This document shows, piece after piece, positions 1 through 34,822 of a DNA stretch of 37,156 bases. The position numbers were made by a program, and so were the translations under genes. The notes beneath the pieces are model-generated. The model did not search any database. It was not told the origin of the DNA and saw only the letters and a program-made list of their open reading frames with translations. This stretch comes from a virus. Taxonomy: Duplodnaviria; Caudoviricetes. Positions within the stretch are counted from its first letter, which is position 1. Every line of letters begins with the position of its first letter. The stretch is taken from positions 1 through 37,156 of the IMG/VR virus record IMGVR_UViG_3300047550_001473. One strand, 5' to 3'.

Positions 1-92
1 CCTAAAGGGGTATACCCCACCCGACATGTCGTAGTATGTCGTTTCTGGACACGACACGAGGCGACATGTCGGGTGGGGTATACCCCTTTAGG
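1..92. repeat. 31-bp perfect inverted repeat with 30-bp spacer
   Basis: 1-31 (cctaaaggggtataccccacccgacatgtcg) is the exact reverse complement of 62-92. Confidence 0.95.
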
Positions 93-1872: not shown

Positions 1873-2063
1873 AAGAGTCTCCCGTGTTTCAGTTTCGAAA
1901 GCCGACTGGCATTCGTGAAACGCGCGCCACATGACGCGCGAGACAAGAGTGTCATTCGCCGAAAAGCGCATTTCCGATAAAGAAAAGCGCAAAAGTAAAC
2001 ACGACGGGACCGAAAAGGATTAATCCGTCAAAAGCCGTTAACGTATGCATTGCGTTTCCCCTA

Positions 2064-2741
2064 TCAAGCCGCGATTTGATCGGCGCGTTTTTTCTGTACG
2101 CCATGCGCGGGGAAGCCGACAATTGTCTCCCGTTGCAACGCGCACAAGCCGCATGATTTACAAGTTACGTCGTCGCGATAAGTCGCGGGGCAAACCGTTA
2201 CCTTGCGCCCTTGCGGCGTTGTGATTTTTGCGGGACCGGAAACGCTTGAAGGTAACACGACAACAACGGGACCGGCTTTCGTTTCCGCCAATGCGTCCGC
2301 GTGTTTCAAGTTATTCGCCGATAGGTTTACAGTGAAACCCTTCGCGTTTGCGTTTTTCACATATTGGCGGTTTTTCTCGTTCCGCGTTACGTCATAGTGC
2401 GTATATGTAAAGCCGCGCTTTCCCTCATTAGCAACGACAAGCGCCGCCAAAGCGCCGCCGTCTATGTTAATCCGGTTTCCGGGCAAGTCACCTGCTTGAT
2501 TATGCCGCCAAAGCGTGCCCGGCTTTAGTTTACGGATTTGATCAACAAAATCGGCCCAAAGCGTGCCAGTGTTTCCGTCAGTTACTTTCTGCCAAAACAT
2601 GAAAAGCGGACCGTTGCCAGCATAGCATCCGTTTTCCCGCAACGGGCAAACGTCCGGGCATGTTGCAAAAGTCGTTGTTGAAACGGGAATAGGTCCCGTC
2701 TTTTCGTTGCGCGATTTCATAGTGAGGGCGACTTGATACAT
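2064..2741 (-). CDS. Cys-rich putative Fe-S/radical-SAM-like phage protein (Gp88-like family)
   Basis: CPxxCP...GCYA, WRHNQAGDL, GFTYTH and CPA...CxxCxxC motifs; AAAGGA RBS. Confidence 0.65.
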   Translation of the reverse strand: MYQVALTMKSRNEKTGPIPVSTTTFATCPDVCPLRENGCYAGNGPLFMFWQKVTDGNTGTLWADFVDQIRKLKPGTLWRHNQAGDLPGNRINIDGGALAALVVANEGKRGFTYTHYDVTRNEKNRQYVKNANAKGFTVNLSANNLKHADALAETKAGPVVVVLPSSVSGPAKITTPQGRKVTVCPATYRDDVTCKSCGLCALQRETIVGFPAHGVQKKRADQIAA

Positions 2742-2771
2742 TGCCGTGTTCCTTTTCTGTTTTTCCGTGTT

Positions 2772-3029
2772 TCAGATAATGATGCGGTCATATAAGGCAT
2801 TTTGCATCGCGCCTTGACTTTGCCATGTGAGCTTAGCGCCGTTTTTCAGTGCGCCGTCATAAATAAACGCGAATTGCCGTCCGCGTTCATAATTCCATTG
2901 GTCATTAGTAATGGGGAAAGCCTCATAGTTAAGCGGCTTGCCTGCCCGTGCTTCCTTGAAACCTTTAACGAAAGCCGCGCAACGCATTGCGGCGCTAGCT
3001 TTTCCTAATCGTGTTTTCAATTGCGACAT
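2772..3029 (-). CDS. Hypothetical early protein
   Basis: ATG at 3029 directly after the upstream stop, with a GGGGA RBS. Confidence 0.7.
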   Translation of the reverse strand: MSQLKTRLGKASAAMRCAAFVKGFKEARAGKPLNYEAFPITNDQWNYERGRQFAFIYDGALKNGAKLTWQSQGAMQNALYDRIII

Positions 3030-3030
3030 G

Positions 3031-3267
3031 TCACTTAATCCCCGCAAGTGACTTTAATTCGGCTTTAATTTGTCGCGCTTTTTCGCCGCGCCATGTATTG
3101 GCATTGGCAAGGAAATAAAGGACAAGTCCGCGCGCACTTTCAACGCCATAGGTTTCGTTAATGTCTGAAATTGTATGCATGGCGCTGATATACGGGACCG
3201 CGCCGAAATAGGGCTTTTGCCAGTCCGATTTAATGTCGCGCGCGATAAGGTAAAGAGGGCGTGCCAT
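3031..3267 (-). CDS. Conserved small phage protein (YFGAVPY...YFLANA.TWRGE)
   Basis: 78-aa ORF, AAAGGA RBS, motif typical of phage hypotheticals. Confidence 0.8.
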   Translation of the reverse strand: MARPLYLIARDIKSDWQKPYFGAVPYISAMHTISDINETYGVESARGLVLYFLANANTWRGEKARQIKAELKSLAGIK

Positions 3268-3306
3268 GTGTTATCCTTTCCGTGTTTCCGTGTTTCAATC
3301 AAATGA

Positions 3307-3513
3307 TTATTGAGCATCAATGATTCGTTGCGTCGGAATGTGCATCCGATACCGCTTGCCGTTCTCGCCCGTCCAAATCGGGGAAAATTCCGCATTAGGG
3401 TGATATTGCGCCCAAAGTTTTGCAGTCTTGCGAGTGCTAATGGCGGAATAGATTAAGGCTGCAACGCCGAATGTAAGTGCGATAACATTGGCTGCAATAA
3501 TGAGTGAAAGCAT
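3307..3513 (-). CDS. Small protein with N-terminal transmembrane helix
   Basis: Hydrophobic residues 1-26; first gene after the leftward promoter. Confidence 0.7.
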   Translation of the reverse strand: MLSLIIAANVIALTFGVAALIYSAISTRKTAKLWAQYHPNAEFSPIWTGENGKRYRMHIPTQRIIDAQ

Positions 3514-3563
3514 TTCCGTGTTTCCTTGTTTCCGTGTTTCTGTTTTCCCGTTAGGGTGAGCCT

Positions 3564-4471: not shown

Positions 4472-5023
4472 ATGCTTATAGGTTATGCTCGTACCTCCAC
4501 CAATGACCAGCACGCAGGGCTCGATGCGCAACGGCGTGACTTAGCCGCGTCAGGGTGCGAGCGCATCTTTGACGAGCAGGTGTCATCTGTCGCGCGTCGT
4601 GACAGGCTTGATGAGGCCATCCAGTACTTGCGTGATGGCGATGTGCTTGTCGTGACGAAGTTGGACCGGCTTGCTCGCAGTGTTGCGGATCTAGTGACGA
4701 TTGTCGCTGAGATCGAGAAGCGTGGCGCGAGCCTGCGTATCCTCGCCATGAATCTTGATACCCACACACCGACAGGCAAGCTGATGCTGAATGTGATTGG
4801 CTCTGTGGCGCAGTTTGAGCGTGAGATCATGCTTGAGCGTCAGCGTGAGGGTATCCAGAAGGCGAAGCGAGACGGGAAATACAGGGGCAGGAAGCCTACT
4901 GCGGCTGTGCGGAAAGACGAGATCGTGACGCTATTGGCTGGTGGAGTGAAGCCATTGGAGATCGCGTCGCAGTTGCAGATCTCGAAGAGCAGCGTTTATC
5001 GTTTGATAGGGGAGATGGGGTGA
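4472..5023 (+). CDS. Small serine recombinase (resolvase/invertase family) with C-terminal HTH
   Basis: IGYARTST catalytic Ser, VVTKLDRLARS, AQFERE..ERQREG, YRGRK, HTH; 183 aa with no large-recombinase domain. Confidence 0.95.
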   Translation: MLIGYARTSTNDQHAGLDAQRRDLAASGCERIFDEQVSSVARRDRLDEAIQYLRDGDVLVVTKLDRLARSVADLVTIVAEIEKRGASLRILAMNLDTHTPTGKLMLNVIGSVAQFEREIMLERQREGIQKAKRDGKYRGRKPTAAVRKDEIVTLLAGGVKPLEIASQLQISKSSVYRLIGEMG

Positions 5024-30861: not shown

Positions 30862-31350
30862 TTGGTAAAGCAGGCATACGATATCCTCGACATCGCTCGG
30901 TTCTACTCGAAGGTTGATGTGGGGAAGAAGCACGAGTGCTGGCTCGTGAACGGTGTGCATGTCGATAGATTTGGGTATGGCTGCTTTACTCTTTCAGGTG
31001 TGAATGTAAGAGCACATCGTTTCTCGTATCAGGTATTCAATGGCGAGATAGGTGACGGGCTAGTCGTGCGGCACAAGTGCGATACTCCGCTGTGCGTAAA
31101 CCCGTATCACCTTGAGACTGGCACTGTCGCTGACAACGTCATGGATCGAGTGGTTCGCGGCCGTTCAGCGGTCGGTGAGCGCAACGGCAAAGCAAAGCTG
31201 ACAGCCGAATTAGCGAAAAAGATTTTCAACGATAAGAGACCATACCCGCTAATCTGTGCTGAGTATGGGTTAAACAAGTCCACCGTATCTCAGTTAAAGG
31301 TCGGTAAGACGTGGTCTCACGTGACCGGTAAGAAGTACATCAAGCGCTGA
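30862..31350 (+). CDS. HNH homing endonuclease
   Basis: RF.SKV...CW, RAHRFSY, VRHKCD.P.CVNP.HL..GT..DN. Confidence 0.9.
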   Translation: MVKQAYDILDIARFYSKVDVGKKHECWLVNGVHVDRFGYGCFTLSGVNVRAHRFSYQVFNGEIGDGLVVRHKCDTPLCVNPYHLETGTVADNVMDRVVRGRSAVGERNGKAKLTAELAKKIFNDKRPYPLICAEYGLNKSTVSQLKVGKTWSHVTGKKYIKR

Positions 31351-31354
31351 TTTA

Positions 31355-31363
31355 TGCTATAAT
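31355..31363 (+). promoter_or_regulatory. Extended -10 promoter (TGcTATAAT)
   Basis: Perfect TGnTATAAT just after the HNH stop. Confidence 0.7.
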
Positions 31364-31369
31364 CTCAAT

Positions 31370-31451
31370 GCGTTGAGCTTGCTCCGCGCTGCTCTTCCTC
31401 CCTGGAGCAGCGGCCCCTGCGTCTCCCATCAGGCGTGGGGGCCATTTTTTT
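31370..31451 (+). ncRNA. Candidate ~80-nt two-hairpin sRNA with C/U-rich loops
   Basis: Promoter at 31355-63; hairpin 31387-31412 (loop UCCUCCCU); hairpin 31412-31443 (loop CCCAUC, three G-U pairs); U7 tail. Confidence 0.6.
31412..31451 (+). terminator. Intrinsic terminator
   Basis: 13-bp GC-rich stem followed by a-TTTTTTT. Confidence 0.8.
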
Positions 31452-31455
31452 AGAG

Positions 31456-31464
31456 TTATCCACA
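31456..31464 (+). promoter_or_regulatory. Perfect DnaA box (TTATCCACA)
   Basis: Exact R-box consensus upstream of the replication-operon promoter. Confidence 0.55.
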
Positions 31465-31481
31465 GGATTGTTAGACAGGTG

Positions 31482-31509
31482 TTGCATATAAAAAAATATA
31501 TGATACGGT
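31482..31509 (+). promoter_or_regulatory. Putative promoter of replication operon (TTGCAT-N16-TACGGT with TG extension)
   Basis: AT-rich spacer; TGaTACGGT. Confidence 0.45.
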
Positions 31510-31554
31510 CTCCAAATCAGCGATGGGGCTGAGTAACACGGAGACACGGAAACT

Positions 31555-31668
31555 ATGTCAGAGCCAGATCCGCGCGTCGTAAGATTTCTGATAAATTTAC
31601 TTGCGATGTGCCTATTCTCGATTATCGTATTCGGTCTAGCTTATATCGTAGATGGGTATGTGCAATGA
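31555..31668 (+). CDS. 37-aa single-TM peptide (MSEPDPRVVRFLINLLAMCLFSIIVFGLAYIVDGYVQ), absent from the ORF track
   Basis: GGAG/ACACGGA leader; ATGA overlap with next gene. Confidence 0.7.
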   Translation: MSEPDPRVVRFLINLLAMCLFSIIVFGLAYIVDGYVQ

Positions 31669-32135
31669 CCAGCGTTGATTGGAGATCGCATTACAAAGAC
31701 GTGCGACTGAGACTTCGTGCTGCACCGCAGCATAACCTTGTCAGAGCACAACTAAGGGAGCCACCTGCACCACAGCCTGAGCCAGAGCCTGTACAGGAAG
31801 AGGTACAAGTCGAAGAAGGACCGGCACCGCTTCCGCCTGTGCTCGCAAAGCAGTTTAGCGAAGCACATCAGCTTCTCCGCGCGGCTAAGATCACGGTCGT
31901 ACCACGGTGGAAGGAAATTCTGAGGGAGACATGCGCAAAGCACAAGATTCACCCAGAGGCGGTTACTGGCAACTCGCGCGAAGCGCCTTTGGTAAAGTGT
32001 CGCCGCGAAGTTTATTACCGTCTGCGGACAGAATTAGGGATGAGTTTGAGTCAGATCGGTCTCAAGCTGAACAAGGATCACACGAGCGTACTCTACGGTG
32101 TGAGGGAATACGCAAAAGCACTAGGGAAAGAATGA
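31665..32135 (+). CDS. DnaA C-terminal (domain IV)-like HTH protein
   Basis: G.SR...LV.CR....Y.LR...GMSL.QIG..LNKDHTSVLYG. Confidence 0.85.
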   Translation: MTSVDWRSHYKDVRLRLRAAPQHNLVRAQLREPPAPQPEPEPVQEEVQVEEGPAPLPPVLAKQFSEAHQLLRAAKITVVPRWKEILRETCAKHKIHPEAVTGNSREAPLVKCRREVYYRLRTELGMSLSQIGLKLNKDHTSVLYGVREYAKALGKE

Positions 32136-34195: not shown

Positions 34196-34735
34196 ATGTT
34201 GAGCTTTCCACAGCAAGCATCAGGTAAACCGTGGGCGCGTCTCGACGCACGCACAGGCATTCTCTTTGTCTCGTCAGCGGATGGTGAAAAGTCTGCCGTA
34301 GACATGAAGGGGAAGGTATTCGGATTAGACATCGCTAACGCGAAGCAGGGCTGGTTGATGGTCGGAGCTGCCGGTGTCGATTGGCAAGAGGTCAACGGTG
34401 CATGGGGCAACCCACCATCGCCAGACCACAAGCCTGGAGTAGATGTGACAATCTACTCGAAGGACGCGTCATTCGGAGACGCTCCATTCCGTAGTGCAAG
34501 AGGGAACTCACGCGCATGGACGCAGTTCGTTGCAGATGTTGCGAAGAAGGCAGGAGCAATCCCTGCCGGTAAACTCGCAACCTTAAAGGTTGATGCCGTG
34601 AAAACGATCAAGGTTGGTCAGGGCACATCTGTGCAGATCGACTTCACTCTTGCACCGAAAGAGAAATGGTTCTCAGCGGAAGAGCAAGAGTCAACTCCCG
34701 CTGCGGCACCAACTCAGGATGACGATGAGTTCTAA
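34196..34735 (+). CDS. Putative single-stranded DNA-binding protein
   Basis: Beta-rich, acidic tail DDDEF, lies before the primase-helicase; AAGGAG RBS. Confidence 0.6.
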   Translation: MLSFPQQASGKPWARLDARTGILFVSSADGEKSAVDMKGKVFGLDIANAKQGWLMVGAAGVDWQEVNGAWGNPPSPDHKPGVDVTIYSKDASFGDAPFRSARGNSRAWTQFVADVAKKAGAIPAGKLATLKVDAVKTIKVGQGTSVQIDFTLAPKEKWFSAEEQESTPAAAPTQDDDEF

Positions 34736-34744
34736 GTAAAAAGA

Positions 34745-34781
34745 AACCCCCGTACCGGCATCCGAAGCCAGTGCGGGGGTT
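34745..34781. promoter_or_regulatory. Stable hairpin in primase-helicase leader (attenuator or reverse terminator)
   Basis: aacccccgtac/gtgcgggggtt stem, preceded by an A-run. Confidence 0.55.
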
Positions 34782-34822
34782 GAAGTCAGGGAGGACACCC
34801 TCTCATTCAAAGGGTAACATCG

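What the first reader, a model, noticed from the sequence alone, without database searches (positions are those of the whole stretch)
31355..31451. Phage-encoded sRNA candidate with anti-Shine-Dalgarno loops
Seen: a perfect TGnTATAAT, then an ~80-nt non-coding unit with hairpin 1 (CGCTGCTC/GAGCAGCG, loop UCCUCCCU) and hairpin 2 (13-bp stem with three G-U pairs, loop CCCAUC) plus U7. The G-U pairs favour a + strand RNA. Known: rhizobial AbcR and cuckoo sRNAs expose CUCCC-type anti-SD loops, and phages P4 (CI) and P1 (C4) use trans-acting small RNAs for immunity. Inference: a regulatory RNA acting on phage and/or host mRNAs.
Basis: partly seen in the sequence, partly recalled or inferred. Interest (0 to 1): 0.8.

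Follow-up and report, generated by a model that had tools for sequence, protein, structure and literature searches.

The report
Phage small RNA with ribosome-site loops
Between the late and early genes of an uncultured freshwater phage lies a conserved non-coding stretch predicted to fold into three hairpins with an exposed CCUCCC loop; it is likely a small RNA that would silence messages by covering their ribosome-binding sites, but neither a free transcript nor a target has been shown.

Summary
The window is a complete 37-kb podophage, host probably Hyphomicrobiales. The unit (extended -10, P0, CCUCCC-loop hairpin, terminator) folds far better than shuffles on + (z -5.1; - strand -1.8). It is kept at the same late/early junction in two phage clades with different upstream genes: 19 variants, CCUCCC in 19 of 19, compensatory stem changes, while neighbouring synonymous sites are mostly changed. 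No Rfam family reaches its cut-off; the alpha-r8/MmgR, cuckoo, AbcR and C4/CI tests fail. A second, suhB-like antisense unit before the primase shares the seed UCCUCCCUG. Best reading: a trans-acting anti-Shine-Dalgarno sRNA that doubles as late terminator. Expression is unproven (metatranscriptome contigs run across both predicted ends in one run). Targets are leads only: primase leader ranked first in 3 of 6 genomes. Immunity is unsupported. Earlier notes of this scan report similar phage anti-SD RNAs on other DNA, so the theme recurs; this family had no look-alike there.

The parts
31355..31363 (+). Extended -10 promoter-like motif TGCTATAAT; no conserved -35
   Evidence: Unique in window; TGnTA[CT][AT]AT kept 3-8 nt after the last late stop codon in both clades
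31368..31451 (+). Predicted ~82-84 nt small RNA (start inferred at 31368-31370)
   Evidence: Fold z -5.06; model R1 finds 18 matches at 89.9-109.2 bits among 46 sources, next best 18.9
31370..31387 (+). P0: 5' hairpin, GCG-UU-GAG / CUC-CGC, bulged UU, variable loop
   Evidence: 12 of 12 stem and 2 of 2 bulge positions invariant in 11 clade-A sequences; same helix in clade B with C-G to A-U change
31388..31411 (+). P1: hairpin exposing UCCUCCCU (anti-Shine-Dalgarno)
   Evidence: CCUCCC unpaired probability 0.89-1.00 in 12 clade-A variants; one compensatory pair
31412..31451 (+). P2: intrinsic terminator, loop CCCAUC, U7
   Evidence: three pairs changed on both sides, four on one side; 12.5-19.3 kcal/mol gap to any non-terminator fold
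31453..31466 (+). Conserved 14-mer holding a DnaA-box-type 9-mer TTATCCACA (consensus recalled); clade A only
   Evidence: 13 of 14 positions invariant against 1 of 15 in the next spacer; absent at this place in G003, G005-G007
31482..31509 (+). Separate early promoter-like motif (TTGCAT-16-TACGGT), inferred
   Evidence: TTG..., TAnGGT kept in three otherwise different versions (alignment)
31517..31532 (+). Early-leader hairpin whose loop GAUGGG is complementary to the P2 loop
   Evidence: candidate partner only
31555..31668 (+). 37-aa hydrophobic ORF, first gene of the early operon
   Evidence: kept in clade-A genomes
34732..34822 (-). Second, suhB/alpha-r8-like antisense unit in the primase leader, sharing UCCUCCCUG with P1; its + strand (34787-34795) is the window's only 9-nt complement of the P1 loop on the + strand
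   Evidence: Rfam suhB 29.8 bits, cut-off 41; fold z -3.79; motif in 24 of 39 leaders
30862..31350 (+). HNH endonuclease gene, last gene before the unit (context; absent here in clade B)

Best explanation
The element is a conserved, non-coding unit at the end of the phage's late genes that is likely transcribed from its own extended -10 promoter as an ~83-nt, three-hairpin small RNA, whose exposed CCUCCC loop would pair with GGGAGG-type ribosome-binding sites and is thereby predicted to repress translation of several mRNAs. Shown: the motifs, their conservation, covariation and predicted loop exposure. Inferred: transcription by host sigma-70, Hfq loading through the terminator and U tail, and translational repression, by analogy with alpha-r8 (SisA, SuhB) and NfeR1. 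Targets are probably mostly host mRNAs with strong Shine-Dalgarno sequences, with the phage's primase-helicase leader as the best internal candidate. The same terminator probably also ends late transcripts and insulates the early promoter; P0 is probably a protein-contact or 5'-stability element.
For: Present in 13 of 13 loci that reach the junction, of 14 found by the neighbouring protein alone. A pattern naming only the -10 and P0 gave 31 loci; 28 carry a terminator and CCUCCC (17 clade A, 11 clade B), 3 are chance matches. 19 distinct variants: CCUCCC in 19 of 19, unpaired probability 0.83-1.00; it sits in the P1 loop in clade A and in the terminator loop in clade B. 98.9% of cells pair, 4 of 25 pairs change on both sides, slid controls 38-50%. 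HNH third codon positions are invariant at 23 of 162 sites, P0 at 14 of 14. The -10 is kept although the upstream gene differs between clades. SisA represses through an anti-SD 10-mer, shown by compensatory mutation (PMC12559287); SuhB binds the SD of thnR (bioRxiv 10.64898/2025.12.09.693200). Primase start region ranks first of 60, 59 and 57 in G000, G003, G005.
Against: No discrete transcript: in run X1 one contig crosses the predicted start (31129-31425) and another the predicted end (31396-31569); contigs are unstranded and may hold DNA. No -35. Covariation rests on few lineages; clade B alone has no two-sided change. Primase is not in the top 7 in G001, G002, G004, and G001/L172 has lost the leader site yet keeps the RNA. 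The clade-A leader site is 28-34 nt upstream of the start codon and its conservation is already explained by the antisense unit. Predicted energies are modest (-8.9 to -12.6 kcal/mol), and any strong SD matches a CCUCCC loop. Host, host targets and Hfq are unknown. The closest GenBank relatives scanned lack the unit.
Confidence: 0.55

Rival explanations
1. Only the terminal terminator of the late operon, with extra 3' hairpins that stabilise late or HNH mRNA; no free RNA.
For: Directly follows the last late stop codon in both clades; X1 contig runs from HNH into the unit; no -35.
Against: Does not need an invariant extended -10, an invariant bulged P0 or an always-exposed CCUCCC.
Confidence: 0.15
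2. Local antisense control: the P2 loop (CCCAUC) kisses the GAUGGG loop of the early leader and damps the early operon, whose first gene is a 37-aa membrane peptide (antitoxin-like logic).
For: Complement kept in 11 of the 12 clade-A rows, across two different leader stems; both loops are changed in the L032/L217 type; chance 0.015 for one leader; ranks 3, 2, 3 in G000-G002.
Against: Only 6-7 bp, 33 nt upstream of the start and not over the SD; no restored pairing in L217; absent in clade B; several loops and leaders were tried, so the chance figure is optimistic.
Confidence: 0.1
3. A protein-binding or decoy RNA: P0 is the functional core and the C-rich loops titrate a host sponge (CrfA-like) or ribosomal component instead of mRNAs.
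For: P0 is the only part alignable between clades; one unrelated phage (L324) has a bulged-UU hairpin, a CCUCCCU loop and a C-rich terminator in the same order; CrfA sponges alpha-r8 RNAs through this motif (PMC12559287).
Against: No binding partner identified; L324 is a singleton found by a pattern that demanded these motifs (1 of 47 non-family matches), scores 15.7 bits, below a chance GC-rich match at 22, and its P0 overlaps a stop codon.
Confidence: 0.1
4. Immunity RNA in the manner of P4 CI or P1 C4, holding lytic genes off in a lysogen or plasmid-like prophage.
For: Small serine resolvase in 8 of 8 genomes; antisense unit at the primase; primase leader is the best internal match in 3 of 6 genomes.
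Against: No Rfam C4 match at E<=10; no tyrosine integrase or partition family among 52 proteins; no extended two-site complementarity to a downstream leader.
Confidence: 0.06
5. Attenuator or leader that switches read-through into the early operon, or part of a replication origin with the DnaA box.
For: Same strand as the downstream operon; X1 contig crosses the terminator; DnaA-box-type 9-mer and A/T tract follow.
Against: Non-terminator folds are 12.5-19.3 kcal/mol worse in 19 of 19 variants; the early operon has its own promoter-like motif; no skew inflection; box absent in clade B.
Confidence: 0.04

Closest known systems
alpha-r8 / suhB family (MmgR, SisA-D, SuhB; Rfam RF00519)
   Same: Weak 5' hairpin, then an anti-SD motif (window CUUCCUCCCU, 9 of 10 with the family 10-mer given in PMC12559287), then an intrinsic terminator; about 80 nt; probable alphaproteobacterial host.
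   Different: Motif lies in the loop of a strong hairpin, not a single-stranded linker; only CCUCCC is kept in relatives; 16.2 bits against cut-off 41; no FGase neighbour; phage-borne.
Cuckoo / alpha-r14 RNAs (CcsR, NfeR1)
   Same: Adjacent hairpins with variable stems and C/U-rich anti-SD loops.
   Different: No loop carries CCUCCUCCC; loops are unlike each other; P0 has no such loop; CcsR1 16.2 bits against 65.3.
AbcR1/2 (alpha-r15)
   Same: Three stem-loops with two CU-rich anti-SD motifs (PMC7143759).
   Different: 83 versus 114-120 nt; no Rfam match at E<=10; no lsrB neighbour.
6C RNA of Actinobacteria and Burkholderia anti-hemB
   Same: Two hairpins with C-rich loops (6C 25.7 bits); loop UCCUCCCUG (anti-hemB 24.8 bits).
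   Different: Both far below cut-off (47, 49.5); other host groups; no P0.
Phage trans-acting sRNAs PreS (lambda), VpdS (VP882), c4 (P1), sar (P22)
   Same: Short phage-encoded regulatory RNAs of similar size (table of PMC12197685).
   Different: No Rfam or motif match found; hosts in that table are not Alphaproteobacteria; none is described there as an anti-SD loop RNA.

Membership tests
alpha-r8 / suhB (RF00519) | Rfam score at or above 41 bits | tested here: not met
   16.2 bits; clade-B copy 19.7
alpha-r8 / suhB (RF00519) | Conserved 10-mer UUUCCUCCCU | tested here: not met
   9 of 10 in the window; 0 of 19 variants exact; only CCUCCC shared
alpha-r8 / suhB (RF00519) | 10-mer single-stranded downstream of a weak hairpin | tested here: inconclusive
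   Follows weak hairpin P0 and is unpaired, but inside a stable hairpin loop
alpha-r8 / suhB (RF00519) | Own promoter and intrinsic terminator | tested here: met
   Motifs conserved; activity untested
alpha-r8 / suhB (RF00519) | Hfq-dependent SD pairing | not testable with these tools
   Needs co-IP and reporters
Cuckoo / alpha-r14 | 2-4 adjacent hairpins | tested here: met
   Three hairpins
Cuckoo / alpha-r14 | CCUCCUCCC in each loop (PMC4615179) | tested here: not met
   In none of 19 variants; CcsR1 16.2 of 65.3 bits
AbcR / alpha-r15 | Rfam match, 110-120 nt, lsrB linkage | tested here: not met
   No match at E<=10; neighbours are phage genes
P1 C4 / P4 CI immunity RNAs | Match to C4-type model | tested here: not met
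   Not among 6 matches at E<=10
P1 C4 / P4 CI immunity RNAs | Two complementary target sites in the downstream lytic leader (recalled) | tested here: not met
   One 6-7 nt match only
P1 C4 / P4 CI immunity RNAs | Temperate lifestyle | tested here: inconclusive
   Serine resolvase in 8 of 8 genomes; no tyrosine integrase
6C RNA (RF01066) | Rfam score at or above 47; actinobacterial host | tested here: not met
   25.7 bits
C-rich-loop trans-acting sRNAs (mechanistic class) | Conserved, exposed CUCC/CCUCCC loop in a stand-alone non-coding unit | tested here: met
C-rich-loop trans-acting sRNAs (mechanistic class) | Discrete transcript | tested here: inconclusive
   Only contigs of four RNA runs; no ends can be read

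The most novel reading that the evidence does not exclude
These phages carry two sibling RNAs that mimic the host alpha-r8 seed (junction RNA and primase-antisense RNA). Together they boost the host's SisA-type repression of TonB-dependent receptor and transporter mRNAs, giving RNA-based superinfection exclusion or metabolic takeover, while also pacing the phage's own primase; P0 defines a new phage sRNA family.
Probability: 0.15. Interest if true: 0.75.

Novelty: new variant of a known kind. Interest (0 to 1): 0.45.

Why it matters
Few phage trans-acting sRNAs are characterised, and the review table read here (PMC12197685) lists none from alphaproteobacterial phages. This is an 83-nt unit with natural variants and a six-base seed, so it can be cloned and tested directly in laboratory Caulobacter or Sinorhizobium. 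It would show whether phages plug into the host's anti-SD sRNA network. The mechanism itself (C-rich loop blocking a ribosome-binding site) is well known, and the scan has met this theme in other phages, so the surprise is moderate.

Tried and rejected
blastn of the unit against 50,697 phage records: 20 records with short chance matches, none over 20% of the query. Loop-specific pattern: 3 of 19 loci were family. Metagenome pattern: 12 of 24 loci were family. P0+CCUCCC pattern: 28 of 75 family, no third clade; L324 kept as a lead, L303's P0 lies in a coding end; L324's neighbour protein has no relatives. Prokaryote genomes: 2 loci with the SSB-like gene, neither with the unit, no host. More distant phages (L183-L194 stretches, MW202711, phiM5, MW202496, C72C1, EBPR podovirus 2, RHph_N3_2, ppBeUSDA76-2) show no such unit, though C72C1 and ppBeUSDA76-2 have CCUCCCU+terminator units below the suhB cut-off. 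RNA runs X2-X4 have no cover over the unit and X4-X6 hold small shares: no evidence either way. One search used a mis-registered structure and is disregarded; one search is the corrected count. ATG-CGT-TGA at 31368 is not conserved (ACG in L023, L032), so no leader peptide; the minus-strand 60-aa ORF crosses a variable-length T run. Contiguous-complement scans gave 9-10 nt matches at near-chance rates. The search of Fremin-type candidate RNA tables found none of our strings in 4 of 6 text supplements; two zips and three large files could not be read.

Full report
Context. The window is a whole virus record of 37,156 bases with a repeated end. It encodes SU10-type portal, capsid and adaptor proteins, ejection proteins, a small serine resolvase, exonuclease VIII and a primase-helicase. 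The best cultured match of capsid (55%) and portal (46%) is Sinorhizobium phage phiM5, and the resolvase is closest to Methylobacterium plasmid proteins (62%), so a Hyphomicrobiales host is inferred, not shown. RNA runs holding related sequence are riverine or freshwater. The element lies between the last late gene (HNH, 30862-31350) and the early operon (37-aa ORF, DnaA C-terminal HTH protein, DUF6378, exonuclease, SSB-like gene, primase).

Observation. The + strand folds at z -5.06, the - strand at z -1.75.

Conservation. Searching with the downstream protein alone gave 14 loci; 13 reach the junction and all 13 carry the unit. A search with the SSB-like alignment gave 40 loci and exposed a second clade (SSB 56-60% identical) with, at the same junction but with no HNH gene, an extended -10, an extra 5' hairpin, P0, and a terminator whose loop holds CCUCCC. 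A pattern naming only -10 and P0 gave 31 loci, 28 of which have terminator and CCUCCC. In all, 19 distinct RNA variants (12 clade A, 7 clade B); CCUCCC is in 19 of 19 with unpaired probability 0.83-1.00, and opening cost 0-0.3 kcal/mol in clade A, 2.1-3.3 in clade B. On 11 clade-A sequences 98.9% of 272 cells pair, 4 of 25 pairs change on both sides (3 of 500 shuffles reach this), slid controls pair at 38-50%; relatedness inflates such counts, and clade B alone shows none. G-U/G-C one-sided changes fit only a + strand RNA. Against the background: HNH third positions are invariant at 23 of 162 sites, the post-terminator spacer at 1 of 15, P1 loop flanks at 0 of 5, while P0 stems and bulge are 14 of 14 (the 4 of 6 printed there for CCUCCC is a one-base misalignment of L032, which has the motif). 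The unit is narrow: it was not found in the more distant phages scanned.

Known families. No Rfam family reaches its cut-off: 6C 25.7/47, anti-hemB 24.8/49.5, isrD 24.8/37, CcsR1 16.2/65.3, suhB 16.2/41. The alpha-r8 family is defined by a terminator and a single-stranded UUUCCUCCCU after a weak hairpin (PMC12559287, passages; PMC1273637, passages); cuckoo RNAs by CCUCCUCCC in each loop (PMC4615179, passages); AbcR by three stem-loops with two anti-SD motifs in 114-120 nt (PMC7143759, passages). The element works like these by anatomy but fails each membership test. Also seen: bioRxiv 10.64898/2025.12.09.693200 (passages), PMC12197685 (abstract and table), PMC6486639 (search listing only), PMC10690425 (listing and supplement search; the unreadable alignment files could contain this motif). 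Paper searches for a phage anti-SD or suhB/alpha-r8 RNA returned nothing relevant; this library lacks most subscription papers, so absence from print is not established.

A sibling unit. The only 9-nt complement of the P1 loop on the + strand lies at 34787-34795 in the primase leader. Read on the minus strand this is itself a suhB-like unit (29.8 bits; z -3.79), preceded inside the primase gene by TTGCTC-17-TAGTGT (sequence), and its motif is in 24 of 39 leaders (redundant contigs included). It shares UCCUCCCUG with P1 in the window and CCUCCC in relatives. This explains the conserved site without invoking the junction RNA, and so weakens it as target evidence, but it shows that these phages often keep two CCUCCC units. 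They were the only two such units found in the window; resampled windows gave 0.5 on average without a promoter requirement.

Targets. With accessibility-corrected helices over automatically called start regions, the primase ranked first in G000, G003 and G005 (-8.9, -9.5, -12.6 kcal/mol); in clade B the match is 9 nt over the real SD, and the gene after the primase ranked second. It was outside the top 7 in G001, G002 and G004; G006 and G007 lack the gene. G001 has lost the site and keeps the RNA, so the primase cannot be the only reason for the RNA. The P2 loop matches the early-leader loop in 11 of 12 clade-A rows, over 6-7 bp only. Host targets could not be tested.

Expression. Six RNA runs hold part of 31250-31650; four were laid. 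In X1 contigs cross both predicted ends; X2-X4 pieces begin at 31538-31579 and do not cover the unit. Capsid-region contigs of relatives are present in the same runs. Contigs cannot show ends, strand or level, and standard libraries tend to lose RNAs under 100 nt (general knowledge), so this is inconclusive, mildly favouring some read-through.

Mechanism and verdict. Most likely a host-sigma-70-driven, Hfq-type sRNA that blocks GGGAGG ribosome-binding sites with an exposed loop, its terminator also closing late transcription (0.55). An attenuator is unlikely (gap 12.5-19.3 kcal/mol), and immunity is unsupported. Earlier notes of this scan describe phage anti-SD RNAs on other DNA, with no sequence look-alike of this one; they are unchecked leads, not support. 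Novelty: new variant of a known kind; interest 0.45.

Noticed in passing
window 34732-34822 (-): suhB/alpha-r8-like antisense RNA candidate with its own promoter-like motif inside the primase 5' end; could control primase expression like a counter-transcript; lost in some relatives (L172, L178, L180).
   Followed up: partly
window 31453-31466: Invariant DnaA-box-type motif just upstream of the early promoter of an operon that encodes a DnaA C-terminal HTH protein (31665-32135): possible autoregulation or host DnaA control; clade A only.
   Followed up: partly
window 1880-3540 (-), 4457, 31536-31549: ACACGG(A/G) repeats, often in tandem, directly before start codons of small early genes; 7-15 copies in each of 8 genomes. 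Possible cassette-exchange or translation motif.
   Followed up: no
window 4472-5023: Small serine resolvase kept at 74-100% identity in 8 of 8 genomes between the terminase genes; no tyrosine integrase, lifestyle unclear.
   Followed up: partly
window 14-79 (repeated at the record's end): Long inverted repeat just after the primase-helicase gene, possibly a replication origin or terminator.
   Followed up: no
L324 1138-1262 (-), record G014: Unrelated singleton phage with a bulged-UU hairpin, a CCUCCCU-loop hairpin and a C-rich-loop terminator (z -6.1): same architecture, homology unproven.
   Followed up: partly
L267 near 28766 (-); L270 near 38317 (+); L303 1207-1307: CCUCCCU plus terminator units, below the suhB cut-off, near lysis or late genes of other phages.
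   Followed up: no
L267 9210-9450 (-): Group I intron (81.8 bits) splitting the major capsid gene of phage C72C1, not annotated in the record.
   Followed up: no
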